Source of the DNA: Callorhinchus milii
Lineage: Eukaryota
DNA: 64,000 nucleotides
Assembly: GCF_018977255.1 (NCBI RefSeq)
Contig: NW_024704761.1
Span: 1,984,001-2,048,000 of the forward strand
Reading direction: 5' to 3'
Shown one piece after another: positions 6,200 through 50,959 of this stretch; positions within the stretch are counted from its first letter, which is position 1, and every line of letters begins with the position of its first letter. The notes beneath the pieces are model-generated. The model saw only the letters and a list, made by a program, of their open reading frames with translations, did not search any database and was not told the DNA's origin. The position numbers were made by a program, and so were the translations under genes.

Positions 6200-7325
6200 G
6201 CAGAGAGACACAGAGCAGATCCAACCCCAACTCCGGGAGACAGAGATTCCGAGAAAGAAAGATTCAGCGACACACAGAGAAAGATTCAGAGAGGGAAAGA
6301 CAGATGGTTTCAGTGAGGGAGAGAGGGGAAGATTTAGACAGAGAGAGATTCGGAGAGAAAGGTTTAGAGACAGAAAGAGAAAGAGTCAAAGAGGGAGGGA
6401 GAGCTGGAGATTCAGAGAGATATTAAGGAGGGAAAGAGACAGAGAGGAGAGATGAAGATTTAGAGAGAGATTGGGGAGGGAGAGAGACAGAGGGAGGGAG
6501 AGGAGAGATGAAGATTTAGAGAGNNNNNNNNNNNNNNNNNNNNNNNNNNNNNNNNNNNNNNNNNNNNNNNNNNNNNNNNNNNNNNNNNNNNNNNNNNNNN
6601 NNNNNNNNNNNNNNNNNNNNNNNNNNNNNNNNNNNNNNNNNNNNNNNNNNNNNNNNNNNNNNACAGAGAGGAGGGGGACAAAGACAGTGAGGAGGGGGAC
6701 AGAGAGGAGAGAGACAGAGAGGAGGGGGACAGAGACAGTGAGGAGAGTGACAGAGAGGAGGGAGACAGAGAGGAGGGGGACAGAGACAGTGAGGAGAGAG
6801 ACAGAGAGGAGGGAGACAGAGACAGTGAGGAGGGGGACAGAGAGGAGAGAGACAGAGAGGAGGGGGACAGAGACAGTGAGGAGGGGGACAGAGACAGAGA
6901 GGAGAGTATAGACAGAGAGGAGGGGGACAGAGACAGTGAGGAGAGAGACAGAGAGGAGAGAGACAGAGAGGAGGGAGAGAGACAGTGAGGAGGGGGACAG
7001 AGACAGAGAGGAGGGAGACAGAGAGGAGAGAGACAGAGAGGAGGGGGACAGAGACAGAGAGGAGGGGGACAGAGACAGAGAGGAGAGAGACAGAGAGGAG
7101 GGGGACAGAGACAGTGAGGAGGGGGACAGAGACAGAGAGGAGAGAGACAGAGAGGAGAGGGACAGAGAGGAGAGAGACAGAGAGGAGAGGGACAGAGAGG
7201 AGAGAGACAGAGAGGAGGGAGAGAGACAGTGAGGAGGGGGACAGAGACAGAGAGGAGGGAGACAGAGAGGAGAGAGACAGAGAGGAGGGGGACAGAGACA
7301 GAGACAGAGAGGAGGGGAGGAGAGG
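6200..7325 (+). repeat. Polypurine (GAGAGAC/GAGGAGGGGGACA)n low-complexity array containing an assembly gap
   Basis: Near-pure purine tandem repeats; Ns at 6524-6662. Confidence 0.95.
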
Positions 7326-7697: not shown

Positions 7698-8243
7698 GTC
7701 AGTGCCCTCACACACTCACACTCACACACACACTACACACTCACCGCCGTGTCTGTGNNNNNNNNNNNNNNNNNNNNNNNNNNNNNNNNNNNNNNNNNNN
7801 NNNNNNNNNNNNNNNNNNNNNNNNNNNNNNNNNNNNNNNNNNNNNNNNNNNNNNNNNNNNNNNNNNNNNNNNNNNNNNNNNNNNNNNNNNNNNNNNNNNN
7901 NNNNNNNNNNNNNNNNNNNNNNNNNNNNNNNNNNNNNNNNNNNNNNNNNNNNNNNNNNNNNNNNNNNNNNNNTACACACTCACCGCCGTGTCTGTGGACA
8001 GGTCAGTGCCCACTCACACTCACACACACACTCACACACTGCACACACACACACACACTCACACACACACACACTACACACTCACCGCCGTGTCTGTGGA
8101 CAGGTCAGTGCCCGCACACACTCACACCACACTACACACACACACTCACACACTGCACACACACACACACTCACACACTGCACACACACACACACTACAC
8201 CCTCACCGCCGTGTCTGTGGACAGGTCAGTGCCCGCACACACT

Positions 8244-39751: not shown

Positions 39752-40095
39752 CACTATAAGGATATAAGGCACTATATCCAATGCAAGTAGTATTATTATG
39801 TACCTACCGGTCTTGGGACAGCATCTGCAACCGCCTCTTCAACCACAAGGAGGCGTCACGATCCAAGCTAATGGTCCTCCCACCGGCACTCCCGAGCTCT
39901 GTGGGGCCGGGGCTCCGGGGGAAAGACGACAGGAACTCACGGGCTTCAGTGACCCACGGGCTGCAGAGCTCTGGGGGGGGACGGGCAGCGAGGGTGGCGG
40001 GTCACTGCCGGCCAACGAGCGATGAGCTCGTAACAACAGGCAACATACGGCAGAGGCCGGGAATCCCAAACAGAAACCCGAGTCGCCGGGAACAT

Positions 40096-40417: not shown

Positions 40418-41084
40418 GATAACGCTCAGCAGGTCAGGCAGCATCCATGGAGAGAGGAAAGTGGGTTAACGTTTCAGGTCGATGCCCTTTCGTTCTATGT
40501 CTCTCTCCGCAGCCCAGCAATCGCCGCGGGGCTGACACGTCACCCGCACTGACCTTCACACAGCGCCAGCGAGTCGGCCCGGGTTCGTGTGTGTGTGGGG
40601 GGTGGGGGGGGGGGAGTACAAAAAAAAACATGGCTTTGGGCGTTGGCCAAAAAAAAATGTATTTTTATCTATTTTTTTTTAAATTTTAACCGTTTCCTTT
40701 TCGGCCCCGTTTCTCGGAGAACTTTTCCTCGCAGGTCACTCCCGACTCGGGAGCCGGAACCGCCCCCCGACTACATCGCAGGTACCGCGGTCAATACTCC
40801 CTTCCCGAAAAAACAACAGTAACAACTCACCACCACCACCACCACGGTAATTAACCACAGCGGTCGGCCGGCGGCTGTGCCCCGCGACGGCCGGGCCCGC
40901 GATCGGCTGCCGCGCTCCGCCCCCGCGAAGCGCTCCCCGCGGGGGGGGTGGGGGTGGGGGGGCGCGTCCCGCGGAACGCTTCTGAGACGTCTCGGAGGGT
41001 GCGATGAGAGGCGCTGTTATCCAAGTGCCAGAATTATTATTATTATTTGTGTTGGGTTTGTCATCGTCTGGTGAAGGGTGGGGG

Positions 41085-41572
41085 GGGGTCAGGATGGGTG
41101 GGGGGGGGGGTGGGGGGGGGGGGTCAGGATGGGTGGGGGGGGGGTCAGGATGGGTGGCGGGGGGGGAGGGTCAGGATGGGTGGGGGGGAGGGTCAGGATG
41201 GGTGGGTGGGGGAGGGTCAGGATGGGTGGGTGGGGGAGGGTCAGGATGGGTGGGTGGGGGAGGGTCAGGATGGGTGGGGGGAGGGGGGTCAGGATGGGTG
41301 GGGGGAGGGTCAGGATGGGTGGGGGGAGGGTCAGGATGGGTGGGGGGAGGGTCAGGATGGGTGGGGGGAGGGTCAGGATGGGTGGGGGGGGGGTCAGGAT
41401 GGGTGGGGGGGAGGGTCAGGATGGGTGGGTGGGGGCGGGTCAGGATGGGTGGGGGGGGATGGGGGGAGGGTCAGGATGGGTGGGGGGGGGTCAGGATGGG
41501 TGGGGGGGGATGGGGGGAGGGTCAGGATGGGTGGGGGGGGGGAGGGTCAGGATGGGTGGGGGGGGGGTCAGG
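41085..41572 (+). repeat. (GGGTCAGGATGGGTGGGGG..)n array directly upstream of the avidin TATA box
   Basis: About 20 units of ~21-25 bp. Confidence 0.95.
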
Positions 41573-41616: not shown

Positions 41617-41622
41617 TATAAA
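41617..41622 (+). promoter_or_regulatory. TATA box of the avidin-like gene
   Basis: GGGTATAAAG, 63 nt upstream of the ATG at 41680, which has good Kozak context (TCCATGG). Confidence 0.75.
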
Positions 41623-41679: not shown

Positions 41680-44600
41680 ATGGCCGCCCTGTGCCGCCTG
41701 TGTGTGTGGGGGTGTGTGTGGGTGTGTGTGTGGGTGTGTGTCCTGCCCACCGCCCGGGTAAGTCAGGCTGCGCTGCGCTGTGGGGAGGGTGGGGTGTGGG
41801 GTGGGGAGGGGAGGGGGTGGGGGTGGGGTGCGGGAGTGTGGGGTGGGGGGGGGTGGGGGTGGGGAGGGGTGGGTTGTGGGGTGGGGGGGGGGGGTGTGGG
41901 ATGGGTGTGGGATGGGGAGGGGTGTGGGGAGGGTGTGGGGGAGGGGTGGGGAGGGTGGGGAGGGGGTGGGGGAGGGTGGGGAGGGTGGGGAGGGGGTGGG
42001 GGAGGGTGGGGTGGGGAGGGGTGTGCGGGGGGGGGGTCTCTCCCTCCCGGTGTAGCCGGGGTTGGGGCTCCCTCCCCCCGGGCTCGGCGCTGACCCTGTC
42101 CCCCCTGTCCCCCCCCAGGCTGAGGGCTGTAACATGACCGGTCTCTGGCGCAGTGGTCTGGGCTCCGCTGTGCACTTGGCGGAGAGGGGCGGCGGTGCGC
42201 TCCGCGGCCGCTATATGACGGCGGTGGAGGTGCAGAAGGGAGACGCCGCTCCCGAGAGCGATGTGATGGGGGTCAGGAACACGGGCAGGAACCCCACATT
42301 CAGCTTCTCGGTGGCCTGGGCGGCAGGTACTGACCACCCACCCACCCACTGACCAACCACTGACCACCGACCACCGACCACCCACTGACCACCGACCACC
42401 CACTGACCACCCACTGACCACCCACCACCCACTGACCAACCACCCACCCACTGACCACTTGACCACCCACTGACCACCCACTGACCACCCACTGACCACT
42501 GACCACCCACTGACCACCCACTGACCACCCACTGACCACTGACCACCCACTGACCACCCACCTGACCACACTACCACTGACCACCCACTGACCTGACCAC
42601 CCACTGACCACCCACTGACCACCCACTGACCACCCACTGACCACCCACTGACCACTGACCACCCACTGACCACCCACTGACCACCCACTGACCACCCACT
42701 GACCACCCACTGACCACCCACTGACCACTGACCACCCACTGACCACTGACCACCCATTGACCGACCACTGACCACTGACCACTGACTGACCACTGACCGA
42801 CCACTGACCACTGACCAGTCACTGACCACTAACTAACTACTGACTGACCACTAACCACTGACTGACCACTGACCACTCACTGACCACTGACTGACCACCC
42901 ACCCACTAACTAACCACCCACCCACCAGCTACTAACTACCCACCAACTACCAACTAATTACCCACCAACTACCTACTAAATACTAACTAATTACCCTCTG
43001 GCCAATTAACTGCCAACTCCCTACTCAGTGACTACCCCCTAACTACCGCTTAAACCTCCTCTTCACCACCTCCTTCTCCCGGTGTCACTGCAGTAACTCC
43101 CGAACCGAGGCTCACGGTGATCTGGAACTGGGGTTTGCAAAGGGTTTGACGCAGTAACTGGACTTAGGGTTTACTACAGTAACTAACTCTCACCCCCCTC
43201 ACGCTCTCACCCCCTCATACCCTCACACCCTCACACCCTCACCCCCTCACGCTCTCACCCCCTCACCCCCTCACCCCCTCACGCTCTCACGCCCTCACCC
43301 CCTCACGCCCTCACCCCCTCACGCTCTCACCCCCTCACCCCCTCACGCCCTCACGCTCTCACCCCCTCACGCTCTCGCACCCTCACCCCCTCACACCCTC
43401 ACGCTCTCACCCCCTCACGCTCTCACACCCTCACCCCCTCACACCCTCACCCTCTCACACCCTCACCCCCTCACACCCTCACACCCTCACCCCCTCACTC
43501 TCTCACACCCTCACACCCTCACGCTCTCATCCCCTCACGCTCTCACACCCTCACCCCCTCACGCTCTCATGCCCTCACCCCCTCACGCCCTCACACCCTC
43601 ACCCCCTCACACCCTCACGCTCTCACACCCTCACCTCCTCACGCTATCACCCCCTCACCTCCTCACACTCTCACACCATCACCCCCTCACGTTCCTCACC
43701 CCCTCACCCCCTCACGTTCCTCACCTCCTCACCCCCTCATGCCCTCCCATCTTAAGCTCTTTGAGACGTCTTGACAGTCTTCCAGACCTAAAGCGCTCCA
43801 CACAATGCACCGCAAGGTGAGTTGACCTTACGCGTGCGTTTGCTCGCGCGTGTCTGCGTGCACACAGGCTCCACCACCTCCTGGGTCGGGCAGTGCTTCG
43901 TGCAGGAAGACGGACAGGAGGTCCTGAAGACCATGTGGCTGCTGAGATCGTCTGCGACAAGCCCTCAAGAGAACTGGGCAGCCGTGAGGTGAGCGACATC
44001 TGCCCCGGCGCTGGCAGGGAGACACTCCCCGGGCGGGTTAACAACTCTTTTGTGAGCAAATGGAGAGAAAGTTATCAGAATGAAAGCCTTTGGCCACGAG
44101 CAGCTGCTGAAGGTCGGACCACATGTGAGGCAGAGACTCCCCACCCCTGCAGCCCCCACATACACACATTTTGGAGCCACCTCATCCCCGAGGAGACCCC
44201 AGTTCCCCCACCCCCACTCCCCAAGGGGTAGTGGAAATCCGGAACTCTGTTCCCCGAAAGATTGTGGACGCCGGATCCATTCACATTCAGTACTGAGGCG
44301 GAGAGCTATTTGTTAGCTCAGGGGATCAAGGGATATAATAATAATAATATATTATTTTATTATATGGGACAAGGGTAATTGGAGCTGAAGTACACATCAG
44401 CCTTGATCTTACTGAATGGCGGAACAGGCTCGAGGGGCTGAATGGCCTCCTCCTGCTGCTATGTGGTCACCCGGCTTCATGAGGGTGACCTTGAGAATCA
44501 GGTCAGCAATATGCTGAGTGTCCAACATCGTGCGCATGTAGCAAAGTGCGGGGAAAGAGCGGTGATTTGCGATGCCGACAACAGCAAGGCTCAGGGTGCG

Positions 44601-44775
44601 TTCTCGGTGCTCTTGTCCCCGCCTGCACCACTCTCTGTGATGGAGGGTTGTGTGGGAGCCGGTGTTTACTGTTCTCTCCCGTCTTTGTGTTTCTTTCTCC
44701 CTCAGGATCGGGGAGGACACTTTCCACCGCAGCCCTGGCAATGTGGTATCTGAGCAGCTGAGGGCGGGCGCATAA
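41680..44775 (+). CDS. Avidin-family biotin-binding protein, secreted, 158 aa, 4 exons
   Basis: Exons 41680-41757, 42119-42326, 43868-43988, 44706-44775. Translation MAALCRLCVWGCVWVCVWVCVLPTAR/AEGCNMTGLWRSGLGSAVHLAERGGGALRGRYMTAVEVQKGDAAPESDVMGVRNTGRNPTFSFSVAWAA/GSTTSWVGQCFVQEDGQEVLKTMWLLRSSATSPQENWAAVR/IGEDTFHRSPGNVVSEQLRAGA*. It carries the avidin hallmarks C-x2-TG-x-W, LGS, YxTAV, PTFxFxVxW, GQCF and EVLKTMWLLRS, with the same four-exon layout as chicken avidin. AATAAA at 44804. Confidence 0.93.
42329..42900 (+). repeat. (CTGACCACCCA/CTGACCA)n array at the start of avidin intron 2
   Basis: Begins within the donor sequence GTACTGACCACC; dozens of TGACC-containing units. Confidence 0.95.
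43188..43740 (+). repeat. (CTCACCCC/CTCACGCT/CTCACACC)n octamer array in avidin intron 2
   Basis: Directly visible 8-bp periodicity. Confidence 0.93.
44318..44465 (+). mobile_element. CR1-type LINE 3' end (shark HER1/HE1-like tail)
   Basis: 'tcagccttgatcttactgaatggcggaacaggctcgaggggctgaatggcctcctcctgctgctatgt'. Related tails near 34690 (plus) and 51070 and 56410 (minus). Confidence 0.65.
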
Positions 44776-46289
44776 CAGCAGCCGTCCAGCGAATAGTGTC
44801 ACCAATAAAGCAATGTCCACTTGATCTTCTTTAACGTGTGTCACTTGTCAGTACTTGTCGGCTGCATACACTGTGAGGCATCATCTGTAAAGCTCATCCA
44901 CATAAGGTCACAATAACCATTGCGTTCGAATACAGAGCCTCATCACGTCAGGAGGACATCTCAAAGCGCTTCGCAGGATTTATTGTGTAGTGCTTGTATT
45001 TGTGGGCAAACCCGGCAGCCAATTTGCTCACAGCAAAGTCCCGCAAACAGCCATGAAGTGAGCAACCGCTTTTATTTCAGGGGATTGTTGGCCAGGACAC
45101 CGGGAGAGAGAAACTCCATTCACTTTTCAATTAGCCCCACGGTTTAACGTCTCATTCAAAGCTCGGCACTGCACTGGAGCGTCAGCCTAGTCTGTGAACT
45201 CGCAGCAGAAGGCAGAAGTCCCGACGTGGGGCTTAGACTCGCAGCAGAGGAAAGGACAAGACATCAACGAAACAGGAACACGGTTGTAAGCGATTCAGCG
45301 GCCACTCTCATCGGTCTGAAACCAAGAGAACGCTGTCTACTGTTTGTGAATTTTGATACTGTTTCCATGGTGATGCGCTCTGCATGAGATTAAATCATAA
45401 TTATCGCATCATGCAATATCAAATGGGAGGAGGACACAGTGATTGTTACCTGAGCTAACCGAGTCGCGGTGTTGGGTTAATTGGTATTCAACCCAGGAGA
45501 ACTAGGAATTTGTCCATTTATAAAATGCCAAGAACTTTGAGCCTCTTTACACACAACGGGAACAGAACCAGGTTACGTCCTGTTGACAGGACAGGGTGGT
45601 TGTTAATGGGGGGGGGGGAGGTGGCTGCTGAATGGAGGCGGTTTCTTGAGCAGGTTTGACTGTAATGACTACTTGAGAACCATGGGAACGGACGGCATAG
45701 GAGGGGGCCATTTAGCTGACGTTCCCGTGGTCGGTGTCGGCTCCTGGTGGAAGCCTCCCAGCCTGACCCCGAGCCAGGGGAACCCGCTTGCTCTGCGTGT
45801 GTCGGCCAAATCTTACAAAATACCCCCATTGCAATGATCTGCTCTAATGTCTCTCTGTGTATCTCTCATGTTACTGGATTGATTTCCATTCTCCTCGTGA
45901 TCTCGAGCAGCTGTGACCCATAACTGACTTGCCTCTCCCCACCGCTTTCTGAATCACTCGTCCCTCTCTACAGTCTTCTGGCGTAATCTCTGGATCTGCA
46001 AACTTCTGGACAATGATTGATCCAAATTCCCCGTTTCCCGAAACTAAAGGAACTCTAAATAGGGGGCGAATGCTGTGTGATCTCCCTCGGTGTAACCGCC
46101 CTGAGCTCCCACAGACCCTGCCTCACAGCTGTCAAAAGTTATTGTATATTTTGAGTGCATAGTTCAAAGGCCCCCCAAATGTGATGTGTTTTAGGGCCAC
46201 CCCTCCCCGCACCCCTTATTCTTTAATCTGGCCTTGCAACCCCTTCCCCCCACCCCCCATCAAGTTATTGTTCACTCCCCCACCCCCAG

Positions 46290-46974: not shown

Positions 46975-49900
46975 ATGATGGCAGCTGTCAGTGTGCTGAT
47001 GGAGGAGGAGAGTCTGCTGTGTGGGATCTGCCTGGAACTGTTGAAGGAAGCCGTGACCATCCCGTGCGGCCACACGTTCTGCCTCGGGTGCATTCAGAGC
47101 TGCTGGTGTGAGGCGGGCGATGGCGGAGACCGCAGGTGTCCTCACTGCCGTCAGAGCTTCGCCCCGGCCCCCCACCTCCACAAAAACCTGATCTTATGTA
47201 AGATCGTGGACGACTTCGCCTCGTCCAGAGCCCGAGTGTCCATCAGCCTAGCGGCCGACGGGGGCAAAGTCTCCTGCGATTTCTGCACCGGAACCAAGAT
47301 GGGAGCAGCCAAGTCTTGCTCGGTGTGTTTGGTCTCTTACTGCGAGCTCCACCTCAAGCCTCACCGTGAGAACGCAGCCTTCCAGCACCACAGCCTGACC
47401 GAGCCCATCGGCGATCTCAACCAGAGGAGGTGTCCGGCTCACGGCAAGCTCCTGGACTTGTTCTGCAGGACCGATCAGATCTTTATCTGCTCCTTCTGCA
47501 CCACCGAGAGACACCGCAATCACCAGACGGTAACTGTGGAGGAGGAAGTTTCCAAACAGAAGGTAAGAGATTCGTGGCAGGAGAGAACAATCTCCCGAGA
47601 CTCTGTCTATGTAGGAAATGATCTAGACTGCAGTGCCTCAGGACAGTGTAGGAACATGTGGTGTGTGAGAGAACTTGTGGTTTAAAGCCTTGCTATTATT
47701 ATTATTTATTTTTGAAGGGATTGTTACCCCCTGGATAAGCGATCCACCAATCGACTAACAACTAGGTTCCTACTTACTGCTTGGTCAACAGTGGCATGTG
47801 TGTGGAGTAAGGCAACTTGCCCGGGAATCGAACCCAGGTCCTCTTGCTTGCTCTAACCACTGAGCTACAGGATTCCACAATCCCTCCAAAAAAAAGAAAC
47901 TTGGTCAACTCAATCCACGACTTGTTTGTGGAACATTGCTGTGCGCAATTGACTGCCATGTTTCGCCCACAAAATACAGTCAATCCACATTACAGTGTAC
48001 GCTGTGAAGGACTTTGAGAGTCTCAACGATGTGATAAGGCACTATGTCAAATGGGAGTTTTATTGTTGTTATAATTTTCAGAAACAACTGGCCCACGAGG
48101 AGGTGGAGGTGGCGACACAGATACAGAGGACGTTGGCTGAGATCAGAAACCTGCAGCAAACCATCGACTCTATTACAGTGAGTACCACATTAATATCTCA
48201 GGGATACAGTATATAGTTTGAATGACAACATGTCAAACAACTGTCAGGATGAGGGAAGGGGAACTGGATGGTCTTCTTTCTCCAGCAAATTCTTATGTCC
48301 CGGTTTCTCATTCTCTCGTCAGACCGCCGCGCTCAACGTGGAGTCCGAAATTACCAACAAGTTCATGGCCATGGCGGAGGCCATTCAGGAGACGCAGAGG
48401 GAAGTGATCGGGCTGGTGGAGGGCGAGGAGCGAGCCTCGCTGAGCCAGGCCGACAGCATCAGGAACCAACTGGAGGAGAAGTGCACGCAGCTGAGAGCCC
48501 GAGAGAAGCAGCTGAAAACCCTGTCGTTGAGCAGCGATCAGCTGAGGCTGATACAGGTAACAGCAAAGCCTAGTCAGAGCCCTGGACCTTGATTACACGC
48601 TGCAGATCATATCTGATGGTTATTGTCCGTCAAACGGGGTCAGCGCGTCACCTGACCCAAGCATGGTCACAGGAGCTGCAAATAACAAGAGCAAATAGTG
48701 AGACACGGGCCAGTGATAAACAGAACCTATCCCAAATAATACAATGGGGCACCAATGGCTAACTTAATGAGATCAGGAGCAGTGATGAAATCTACAACAA
48801 AAAGTTACATTTGTATGAATTATCTGGCATGTGTCCTGATTGAATAAGCCTTTTATTCATACAAACAAAGGCTTATTTAATCAGGACAAATGCCAGATAA
48901 TTCAACAACATTGGCAGTATGATTGGGATGGATTTGGTGGTCAGCACTTGCTGAGAGGGTTTGGGTGTGTGAGGGTGTGTGTGTGGGGGTGGGGGGCAGT
49001 ATATGTGTTTGTGGGGTGTGTGTGTGTGGTGGGGGGGAGCAGTGTGTGTGTGTGGGGTGTGTATGCGAGGGGGAGAATCTGGTATTTGCAATCTGATGAT
49101 ATAACCATGGAGTGATCTTGTCTTCAGTATTTTACATCAGTGACTTCAATAAAGTCTTAATTCTTTGTGGTTTTACTCCAGAAAGTCATTGAGTTTTCTT
49201 TCGCTTGGCAAATTCTTATGTTTTTATGTTTCCACGTGTGTTCGCTTGCTGTCAGGAATCTCTGGCTGTGAATGAAGCCACTCAAAGCCTGGAATTCCCG
49301 CAGTTGCGGAGAGATATATTTGTGACGATCGCTCATGCCAGTGAGGTGGTAACTGAGCTCTCGGTGCTGGTAACGGGGTACCTGAGAGAGGCCGTCAACC
49401 ACGGACTGAAAAACAGAGGCACAAAAGGTCAGTGAATTCTATCTGTCTGTCTGTCTTGTCTGTCTGTCGAATGATTGATATGATGCTCAGAATATTTTCG
49501 CCTCGCTCAGCACTGGGTCAAAGTGTGGGGCACAAATTGGCCTCAACGCACTATAGCTTTAGTAGAGACAGTTCCTATGATTGTTTTTATCAGGATCAGG
49601 GTTGACTACAAAGTCCCGGTCAGCCAGCGCTTTCTGGCTAGAATCGCGCCACCGCAGCCAACTGCGCACAGCAGTGTCCCACAAACAGCCGTGGATTGAA
49701 TGCCACGCGATCCACCAATCGACCAACAATCAGGAAGCTGCTACGTGCGTTTCTCACAGTTTTGTGGAGTCCTGTAGCTCAGTGGTTAGAGCACTCGCTT
49801 TGCAAGTGAGAGACCTGAGTTCAATTCCAGGCAGGGCGAAACCTTGGGCAAGTTTCCTTACTCCACACAGAGCCTAATAATAATCCCTCCAAAAAACCAA

Positions 49901-50959
49901 AAACAATAATTAAATTGGTCATTTTCAATCGACGACTGTTTGTGGGACATTGCTGTGCGCAATTGGCTGCCGCGTTCGCCCACAAATATACAGTCAATTC
50001 ACTTTACAGTGTGTTCTGTGAAGCGCTTTGGGACGTCCTCCTGACGTGAAAAGCGCTATATCAAATGCAAGGATTATTATTATTATTATTATTGTTCTGA
50101 TTTCACTTTGGACAGGACGTAAAGCAGAGATTGCTCCTGGGCCGCTCAGCCTCCATGTTGCCCCATTTCATTCGGACCCGGTGACCCGGGAGGACTTTTT
50201 ACGTTGTGAGTATTGCGCTTGTCTTCATTTCACTGTGATCATCCCTTCGAAAAGAGAAAATTTGCCCACAAGATACACAGTCAATTCACTTTACAGCGTA
50301 TCCTGTGAAGCACTTTGAGACGTCTCGAAGACGTGATGAGGTGCTGTATGAAATGTAAAGATTATTATTATTATTATATTTCTTCTCCCTTTCCAGATGC
50401 CGCAAAGCTGACATTTGACCCAAACACCGCGAACAACTACTTGAGTTTATCTGCCGGGAACCGGACGGTGATGGAATGTTTCCCCGAGTCGGGAGGGTAC
50501 CTGGAGCACCCTGACCGCTTCGACACTCTGTGGCACGTACTGTGTGCCGAGAGCCTGTGCGCCGGCAAGTACTACTGGGAGGTGTGCGGGCAGGCAGGGC
50601 CGCGGGGCTTCGCCGCTAACCTGGGCATCGCTTACGGGAGGATCAACAGGAAGGGGGCCGACCTTTCCTGCTCCATCGGCGGCAACGCTGTGTCCTGGTG
50701 CCTGAGCGTCTCCCCGGACGGGGGCCGCCGGCAACGCTTCTCCGCCCGGCACAGGAACAAGTCGTTCGACATCCCGCGAGTGGCGTGCGAGCGGATCGGA
50801 CTCTACCTGGACTGGCCAGCCGGCACCTTGGCCATTTACGATGTGGTCGCGGGTGCCATGACTTTGATTCACCGGTTCCGCTCGGTGTTCACCGAGCCCC
50901 TGTTCCCCGCGTTCGGAGTTTACTCCAAGTCGTCGCTCACGATCCAGCAGCTGCCATAG
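46975..50959 (+). CDS. Tripartite motif E3 ligase (RING, two B-boxes, coiled coil, PRY/SPRY), TRIM16/25/47/finTRIM-like, about 580 aa
   Basis: Exons 46975-47562, 48082-48177 (96 nt), 48323-48556 (234 nt), 49256-49427, 50116-50205, 50397-50959. RING CGICLELLKEAVTIPCGHTFCLGC...CPHC; B-box1 CDFC...KSCSVCLVSYCELHLKPH; B-box2 CPAHGKLLDLFCRTDQIFICSFC; PRY LTFDPNTAN; SPRY YYWEV...IGLYLDWPAGTLAIY. AATAAA at 51291. Confidence 0.94.
49766..50093 (+). mobile_element. tRNA-Ala-headed SINE, full length, young
   Basis: Intact A and B boxes, TGC anticodon loop and (ATT)n tail, ending about 22 nt before the TRIM exon 5 acceptor. Confidence 0.93.

What the first reader, a model, noticed from the sequence alone, without database searches (positions are those of the whole stretch)
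41680..44809. Intact avidin-family gene with a remodelled biotin pocket, inserted in a 17q25-like block
Seen: a complete 4-exon ORF with TATA box, signal peptide and polyA signal. By my manual alignment to chicken avidin, L14, S16, Y33, T35, W70, S75, T77, W97, L99, W110 and the C4-C83 pair are kept. The changes are N12 to S, loss of F72 with a one-residue shorter loop, F79 to W, and N118 to D; the last two are streptavidin-like. There is also a ~14 aa C-terminal tail. Known: vertebrate avidins are characterised from birds, frog and zebrafish, and are absent from the human LLGL2/MRPS7 region. Inference: this is a chondrichthyan avidin, possibly an egg or antimicrobial protein, with altered ligand affinity. 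The tail might occupy the pocket as in bradavidin.
Basis: partly seen in the sequence, partly recalled or inferred. Interest (0 to 1): 0.72.

Follow-up and report, generated by a model that had tools for sequence, protein, structure and literature searches.

The report
Elephant shark zebavidin-type avidin gene
This is an intact, spliced and already catalogued avidin gene of the elephant shark, of the same type as the zebrafish protein zebavidin; it likely makes a secreted four-subunit protein predicted to hold the vitamin biotin far more loosely than egg-white avidin, and most of its 'remodelled pocket' is ordinary for that type.

Summary
The gene is real: four exons, 158 aa, TATA box and polyA signal. 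Exon 1-2-3 splicing is seen in contigs of three studies. It is Callorhinchus milii avidin, already in UniProt/RefSeq and in a 2026 catalogue of 130 fish avidins. Three of the four 'pocket changes' (F72 loss, W79, D118) are also in zebavidin, whose structure and nanomolar Kd are published, and in 14 of 14 shark and ray relatives. N12S is absent from those 14 but occurs in at least 19 of the 130 catalogued fish avidins. The tail is shared with sharks and rays (12-18 residues) and is about 9 residues too short to follow the bradavidin path. The site is probably ancestral, not an insertion: the frog gene of this type lies on a record the size of Xenopus chromosome 10. Most likely a secreted tetrameric, moderate-affinity biotin carrier; no binding was measured. 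Known gene, low interest. The better lead is recurrent loss of oxyanion-hole residues in this lineage (Ser12 in fish, no Tyr33 in 29 of 29 amphibian rows).

The parts
41075..41567 (+). G-rich minisatellite (21-24 bp unit) ending about 50 bp before the TATA box; holds 21 GGTCA pentamers
41617..41622 (+). TATA box, 63 bp before the ATG
   Evidence: function inferred
41680..41757 (+). Exon 1 coding part (26 codons): predicted signal peptide; its hydrophobic core is coded by a TG-rich microsatellite (41699-41741)
   Evidence: joined to exon 2 in contigs of X1, X5, X9 and in a testis-labelled mRNA clone listed in PMC13425791 Table S1
42119..42326 (+). Exon 2: predicted cleavage after its first residue, N-glycosylation sequon, C4, L14, S16, Y33, T35, W70, short L5,6 loop
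42152..42157 (+). Codons for S12 and G13 (avidin N12, D13); each is one A-to-G transition from an Asn or Asp codon
   Evidence: same letters in contigs of three studies
42329..42902 (+). Intron 2 tandem repeat (7-29 bp units) with 50 TGACC pentamers; a second repeat array lies at 43189-43746
43868..43988 (+). Exon 3: S75, T77, W79, C83, M96, W97, L99, W110
   Evidence: its start is the loose end behind exon 2 in three runs
44706..44775 (+). Exon 4 coding part: strand 8 with E117, D118 (44716-44718), 14-residue tail (44731-44772) and stop
44804..44809 (+). Polyadenylation signal
   Evidence: use inferred

Best explanation
The gene is spliced and encodes the elephant shark member of the zebavidin-type avidin lineage, likely secreted as a glycosylated homotetramer that is predicted to bind biotin reversibly, at nanomolar affinity or somewhat weaker, and so likely acts as a biotin carrier or buffer in gonads, yolk and secretions rather than as an irreversible trap. 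Shown: gene structure, splicing, family, lineage. Predicted: eight-stranded barrel, tetramer with W110 reaching into the neighbouring pocket. Inferred: biotin's ureido ring is held by S16, Y33, T35, D118 and a shorter S12; A44 fills the space of the missing F72 as in zebavidin; the loss of N12 speeds release further; the tail hangs outside the pocket.
For: Identical to UniProt V9LEJ9 and A0A4W3GDR5 of C. milii. Exon 1-2-3 joins in contigs of 3 of 4 runs laid, from three studies; the fourth run reads on into intron 2. Zebavidin is the best natural single-domain PDB match by sequence (E 9e-31) and the top fold match (rmsd 0.9 A over 120 columns). AlphaFold2 gives pLDDT 89.4 and eight strands. 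Tetramer score 0.89, best of 3 controls 0.02, runs agree in at least 96% of contacts, pLDDT at least 80; the mark was reached by 21 of 30 solved homo-pairs and 0 of 23 single chains (eukaryotes 17 of 29, animals 7 of 16), and the pass may be from memory of solved avidin tetramers. Short loop, W79 and D118 in 14 of 14 elasmobranch rows; W79 in 35 of 35 ray-finned and 29 of 29 amphibian rows. Tree: on the zebavidin side (91/94, not starred), outside the chicken-type group (99/97). Zebavidin Kd 2-5 nM, off-rate about 100,000 times chicken avidin's, expressed in gonads, isolated from oocytes (PMC3811995); its knockout changes neither development nor survival of S. agalactiae infection (PMC13425791). 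Streptavidin N23A dissociates about 230-fold faster (values quoted in 10.1101/176594). Calculated pI 6.1 against 10.0 for chicken avidin. An mRNA clone labelled testis exists.
Against: No binding was measured. The affinity is borrowed from zebavidin, only 43% identical, and from an Asn-to-Ala mutant of streptavidin, not Asn-to-Ser in an avidin. The carrier role is only a suggestion in print for zebavidin. Tissue of the three runs is unknown and they are not on record as RNA; ovary, oviducal gland and skin expression is untested. The protein has its own cluster of changes (N12S, D13G, two-residue loop loss, T113V) that could weaken binding more than predicted. The branch placing it with zebavidin is not starred, and the free tree does not join it to sharks and rays, although that grouping is not rejected (p-AU 0.308). 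The signal peptide was judged by hydropathy and position only.
Confidence: 0.72

Rival explanations
1. It is a defence protein that starves microbes of biotin in the egg case, gonad or mucosa, as proposed for chicken avidin.
For: This is the role proposed for chicken avidin, which is induced by progesterone and infection (PMC9363672). Zebavidin is also expressed in male gills. C. milii lays long-incubating egg cases (recalled), and only this one gene is listed for the species in Tables S1 and S2.
Against: Zebavidin knockout embryos resist S. agalactiae normally. The lineage binds about a million-fold more weakly than chicken avidin. Calculated pI is 6.1, not cationic. The gene is kept in sharks and rays recalled as live-bearing (Carcharodon, Mobula, Hypanus, Pristis, Mustelus).
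Confidence: 0.2
2. The chimaera protein has drifted or shifted ligand: N12S, D13G, the shorter L3,4 loop and T113V together leave only weak (micromolar) biotin binding, or a preference for a biotin derivative.
For: N12 anchors the ureido carbonyl with S16 and Y33 (PMC6274289) and is Asn in 118 of 118 tetrapod domains and 14 of 14 elasmobranchs. The loop is 18 residues against 20 in 14 of 14 elasmobranchs, and a glycine kept in at least 90% of 12 aligned members is replaced. A chicken paralogue prefers biotin sulfoxide (PMC1831776).
Against: All other ring-binding residues and all four tryptophans are kept. Ser12 is tolerated in at least 18 other fish avidins and needs 6 changes on a 57-row tree, so it looks like an allowed variant. 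The terminal branch is not flagged as long (0.24).
Confidence: 0.13
3. The C-terminal tail is an intrinsic ligand that plugs a biotin pocket, as in bradavidin.
For: The tail holds S-E-Q-L, close to the S-E-K-L core of the Brad-tag (PMC5398887). A hydrophobic pair in the tail is shared with several rays and sharks. Intrinsic peptide ligands are known in three bacterial avidins.
Against: Bradavidin's extension is 25 residues and its pocket-entering E131-K132-L133 begin 18 residues into it; here E-Q-L begin 8 residues into a 14-residue tail. The lysine that fills the ring space is Gln. The motif is in 0 of 14 elasmobranch tails, which vary from 12 to 18 residues. AlphaFold2 gives a low-confidence helix (pLDDT 75 then 56), like the predicted C-terminal helix of chicken BBP-B (PMC8033661).
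Confidence: 0.06
4. The gene was inserted into this block in the chimaera lineage.
For: Zebavidin is on zebrafish chromosome 10 and chicken avidin on Z; neither is recalled as the LLGL2/MRPS7 linkage group. Mammals lack avidin.
Against: The X. tropicalis gene of the same type (P0337) lies on a 52,432,566-base record; chromosome 10 is 52.4 Mb and carries homology to chicken 18 and 20, and chicken 18 is recalled as the 17q25 homologue. The four-exon layout matches zebavidin's (87/211/120/42 against 78/208/121/70), which excludes a retrocopy.
Confidence: 0.2

Closest known systems
Zebavidin (Danio rerio, PDB 4BJ8; PMC3811995)
   Same: Four exons, C4-C83, missing F72 with a short L5,6 loop, W79, D118, E38, E117, A44, long L3,4 loop, sequon beside C4; 43% identity; top fold match.
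   Different: S12 and G13 instead of N and E; L3,4 loop two residues shorter; D for A43; T77, M96 and I115 instead of S, Phe and Met; no free Cys75; tail 16 residues after the last Phe against 7; lower pI.
Clade 1 chondrichthyan avidins (PMC13425791), e.g. Carcharodon avidin 1, Heptranchias P0302
   Same: 55-62% identity over the barrel; same short loop, W79, D118; tails of 12-18 residues. The C. milii protein is itself row 27 of that paper's Table S2.
   Different: N12S, D13G, loop 18 against 20 residues, T113V, E117 for Q in most; signal peptide built on a microsatellite. None of them has binding data in the papers seen.
Chicken avidin, AVRs, xenavidin (chicken-type lineage)
   Same: Fold, four exons, tetramer residues W110 and M96, most ring contacts; xenavidin also has W79.
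   Different: Separate paralogous lineage; F72 present, N118 usual, femtomolar Kd, pI 10; chicken locus on Z.
Bradavidin (PMC5398887)
   Same: Avidin barrel with a C-terminal extension; a four-residue resemblance to the Brad-tag core.
   Different: Bacterial; 25-residue extension with a surface-packed spacer; Lys in the ring space; motif conserved in its relatives, unlike here.

Membership tests
Avidin family (PF01382) | Sequence match above the Pfam cut-off | tested here: met
   Exons 2 and 3 score 40 and 44.4 bits, cut-off 24
Avidin family (PF01382) | Eight-stranded antiparallel barrel | tested here: met
   Predicted model, pLDDT 89.4, eight strands; rmsd 0.9 A to 4BJ8
Avidin family (PF01382) | Homotetramer with W110 completing the neighbouring pocket | tested here: met
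   Prediction only: 0.89 against best control 0.02, residue 110 in the interface; may be from memory of solved tetramers
Avidin family (PF01382) | Ureido-binding set N12, S16, Y33, T35, N/D118 | tested here: inconclusive
   4 of 5 kept; N12 is Ser, as in at least 18 other catalogued fish avidins
Avidin family (PF01382) | Measured biotin binding | not testable with these tools
   Needs recombinant protein
Vertebrate avidin genes | Four exons, signal peptide in exon 1, spliced transcript, C4-C83 pair | tested here: met
   signal peptide by hydropathy and position only
Zebavidin-type (clade 1) avidins | No F72 with a five-residue W70-S75 loop, W79, D118, long L3,4 loop | tested here: met
   L3,4 stretch is 18, between the type's 20 and the chicken type's 17
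Zebavidin-type (clade 1) avidins | Groups with zebavidin, apart from chicken-type avidins | tested here: met
   91/94 support, not starred, 57 rows; 99 SH-aLRT in a quick 119-row tree
Chicken-type avidins | F72 and six-residue L5,6 loop | tested here: not met
   Loop of five; 117 of 118 tetrapod domains have six
Avidins with an intrinsic tail ligand (bradavidin type) | About 25-residue extension with a conserved E-K-L entering a pocket | tested here: not met
   14-residue tail, E-Q-L, motif in 0 of 14 relatives
Avidins with an intrinsic tail ligand (bradavidin type) | Tail seen in the pocket of the apo structure | tested here: inconclusive
   Tetramer model names no tail residue among confident contacts, which the tool says is no evidence of absence

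The most novel reading that the evidence does not exclude
Jawed vertebrates have two old avidin paralogues. The zebavidin type sat from the start in the LLGL2/MRPS7 linkage group, survives in chimaeras, sharks, ray-finned fish, frogs and salamanders, and has repeatedly detuned its oxyanion hole (Ser12 here and in catfish, knifefish, herrings, gar and bowfin; Tyr33 gone in amphibians) to become a releasable biotin carrier or to bind another ligand. The elephant shark protein would be the earliest-branching Ser12 example and a natural neutral-pI, reversible avidin.
Probability: 0.3. Interest if true: 0.42.

Novelty: already known. Interest (0 to 1): 0.2.

Why it matters
As a gene it adds little: it is annotated and catalogued, and its type has a solved, measured member. 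Two modest uses remain. The correct first exon restores a signal peptide that the RefSeq model used in the 2026 catalogue lacks. And the recurrent Ser12 variant, which that paper's results section does not mention, gives a natural series for asking whether fish avidins are traps or releasable carriers, an open point after the null knockout result. A reversible, near-neutral avidin could also be a handy affinity reagent.

Tried and rejected
A first splice attempt was one base off and gave stops; corrected. No whole genome is held for this window, so other avidin copies and micro-synteny could not be searched; cluster members could not be listed. No holder is on record as RNA; that blank is not used as evidence, and tissues are not given. 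Only exon 2 with short flanks was laid on reads, so the exon 3-4 join rests on public protein and mRNA records. The first full-length homologue search returned almost only birds and would have made all four changes look rare; the profile search corrected that. The tetramer model names no tail residue (123-136) among confident contacts: no verdict on the tail. Exon 4 alone matches no solved structure at E up to 10. The careful 119-row tree did not finish; the quick one is cited as such. Paper searches for avidin+Callorhinchus+biotin-binding and avidin+N12A+biotin gave 0 papers; avidin+Asn12+biotin gave 20, 12 listed, none on a Ser12 avidin by title or abstract start; avidin synteny and shark egg-case searches gave nothing on this gene in the 15 listed each. 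Two look-ups in the scan's earlier findings gave nothing. Sequencing error for S12 rejected. Retrocopy rejected (three introns). No full palindromic oestrogen element in the window.
Full report
1. Observation. Exons 41680-41757, 42119-42326, 43868-43988 and 44706-44775 have GT-AG ends and give 158 aa, with TATAAA at 41617 and AATAAA at 44804. Exons 2 and 3 each pass the Pfam Avidin cut-off. A search with exon 2 returned two identical Callorhinchus milii entries, V9LEJ9 and A0A4W3GDR5; the spliced window product equals residues 17-174 of V9LEJ9. Of 13 runs listed for exon 2 I laid 4. In X1, X5 and X9, from three studies, the contig leaves the genome exactly at both ends of exon 2 and continues with the end of exon 1 and the start of exon 3 (checked); X12 continues into intron 2. 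The single other letter in each spliced contig is accounted for by the exon 1 junction, so S12 is not an assembly error. Table S1 of PMC13425791 lists an mRNA clone labelled testis whose translation crosses all three junctions.

2. The residue list is right, the comparison was to the wrong paralogue. Against chicken avidin chains the kept and changed residues are as stated. But the best natural match is zebavidin, by sequence and by fold (rmsd 0.9 A). The zebavidin paper describes the missing Phe72 and one-residue shorter L5,6 loop, with Ala44 filling the space, and calls Trp78 and Asp117 substitutions common among avidins. A profile search (120 of 658 hits listed) gave named relatives. I tabulated 94 rows: 92 named rows from that list and two, leaving out unnamed rows, constructs, a second C. 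milii entry and several bird, cnidarian and partial rows. Short loop, W79 and D118 are in 14 of 14 elasmobranch rows (13 species). W79 is in 35 of 35 ray-finned and 29 of 29 amphibian rows; D118 in 32 of 35 (3 truncated) and 27 of 29; the short loop in 34 of 35 and 23 of 29. Among the 118 mostly bird domains, all have F79 and N12 and 117 have the six-residue loop. A careful tree of 57 of the 94 rows (near-duplicates dropped) puts the protein on the zebavidin side at 91/94, not starred, and the eight chicken-type rows together at 99/97. It branches below sharks and rays, but their grouping with it is not rejected (p-AU 0.308).

3. What is its own. N12S, D13G, an L3,4 stretch of 18 against 20 residues, and T113V. 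N12 anchors the ureido carbonyl with S16 and Y33. It is Asn in 14 of 14 elasmobranch rows and in 17 of 18 chondrichthyan rows of Table S2 (read by eye). But Ser12 is in 6 of 35 ray-finned rows and in at least 19 of the 130 rows of Table S2, a lower bound from six searched motifs: catfishes, Electrophorus, Prochilodus, two herrings, gar, bowfin and C. milii. One catfish row, Bagarius, has Asn. The state needs 6 changes on the 57-row tree. So it is a recurrent, tolerated variant whose effect I found measured nowhere (searches; a library without most subscription papers).

4. Tail. It is 16 residues after the last conserved Phe; sharks and rays have 12-18, four chicken-type bird rows 3-8. Bradavidin's extension is 25 residues, of which 14 pack on the surface before E131-K132-L133 enter a neighbour's pocket. 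Here a similar S-E-Q-L starts much closer to the barrel, lacks the lysine and is in none of 14 relatives. AlphaFold2 gives a weak helix. The tetramer job passed (0.89 against 0.02; caveats under Best explanation) and gives no verdict on the tail.

5. Locus. Pfam finds SRP68, a RING/B-box TRIM gene, LLGL2, ribosomal S7 and an NT5C-like exon in the window (118 selected frames). Their human position at 17q25 is recalled. 'Inserted' could not be tested directly. One chromosome-level hint speaks against it: the X. tropicalis gene of this type is on a 52,432,566-base record, chromosome 10 is 52.4 Mb and holds homology to chicken 18 and 20; chicken 18 as the 17q25 homologue is recalled. Chicken avidin is on Z, which maps to Xenopus chromosome 1. 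Against this, zebavidin is on zebrafish chromosome 10, which I recall is not the LLGL2 chromosome. The simplest reading is an old locus lost in amniotes and moved in teleosts; it is inferred.

6. How it likely works. Secretion through the exon 1 signal (hydrophobic core 2.8 on the Kyte-Doolittle scale, like relatives; predicted cut at the same place as in sharks), glycosylation at a sequon beside C4, tetramer, and biotin bound as in zebavidin. Zebavidin has Kd 2-5 nM and releases biotin about 100,000 times faster than chicken avidin; streptavidin N23A releases about 230 times faster than wild type. Ser may keep part of that bond, so I expect Kd between a few nM and about 1 uM. Zebavidin is gonad- and oocyte-enriched, its knockout is normal in development and S. 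agalactiae infection, and its authors suggest biotin supply to embryos. With a calculated pI of 6.1, a releasable carrier is more likely than an antimicrobial trap. All of this step is inference.

7. Novelty. The protein is row 27 of Table S2 in PMC13425791, whose abstract already reports avidins in cartilaginous fish. It excluded tetrapods from its searches, so the amphibian members of this lineage, none of which keeps Tyr33 (0 of 29), lie outside it. Verdict: already known; interest 0.2.

8. Papers seen. PMC13425791: abstract, introduction, part of methods, sections 18 and 22, passages, and rows of supplements 1 and 4 through term searches; figures not seen, so its alignment figure may mark Ser12. 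PMC3811995: sections 22 and 29 and passages. PMC5398887, 10.1101/176594 (rates quoted there from another paper), PMC8033661, 10.1101/2021.10.18.464293, PMC3534110, PMC9363672, PMC6274289, PMC1831776: passages only. Reproductive modes of named sharks and human or chicken map positions marked 'recalled' come from no call.

Noticed in passing
P0133, P0141, P0171, P0317-P0361 (amphibian rows): Frogs and a salamander carry a zebavidin-type avidin besides the xenavidin type; Tyr33 is replaced (Leu, Phe or Met) in 29 of 29 rows, often with Ser at 35. This is a more altered pocket than the one in this window. Gar has both Ser12 and Leu33.
   Followed up: partly
window 39871-40029 and intron 1 before 42119: RefSeq XP_042198489.1 takes its N-terminus from here, and A0A4W3GDR5 starts inside intron 1; both lack the signal peptide. 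Three spliced contigs support exon 41680-41757 instead.
   Followed up: yes
window 41699-41741: The signal peptide's hydrophobic core is coded by a TG-rich microsatellite (12-bp unit, 3.6 copies), giving five cysteines and no visible likeness to shark signal peptides. V9LEJ9 has 16 extra N-terminal residues that do not match the window's upstream frame exactly.
   Followed up: partly
window 41075-41567 and 42329-42902: Two repeat arrays flank exon 1-2 with 21 GGTCA and 50 TGACC pentamers (steroid-receptor half-site sequence, recalled), against a window mean of 3.5 per kb; no full palindrome. May be incidental to the repeat units.
   Followed up: partly
window 39807-39959 (- strand) and 40760-41000: An exon-like frame (GC3 0.78, with plausible splice ends) and a CpG-rich stretch suggest a small unidentified minus-strand gene between LLGL2 and the avidin gene; no Pfam hit and no Atlas hit.
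   Followed up: partly
window 46978-50956 (+): A RING/B-box TRIM gene with a SPRY-like last exon (by eye) lies 2 kb downstream of the avidin gene; subfamily not determined.
   Followed up: no
P0125-P0131, P0275, P0277: Two-domain avidins of 330-420 aa, some named from sea anemone and soft coral, score high against this lineage and share its long L3,4 loop, W79 and often D118, which suggests these are the ancestral animal states.
   Followed up: no
window 6524-6662 and 7758-7972: Two assembly gaps (runs of N) in repeat-rich sequence, far from the gene.
   Followed up: no
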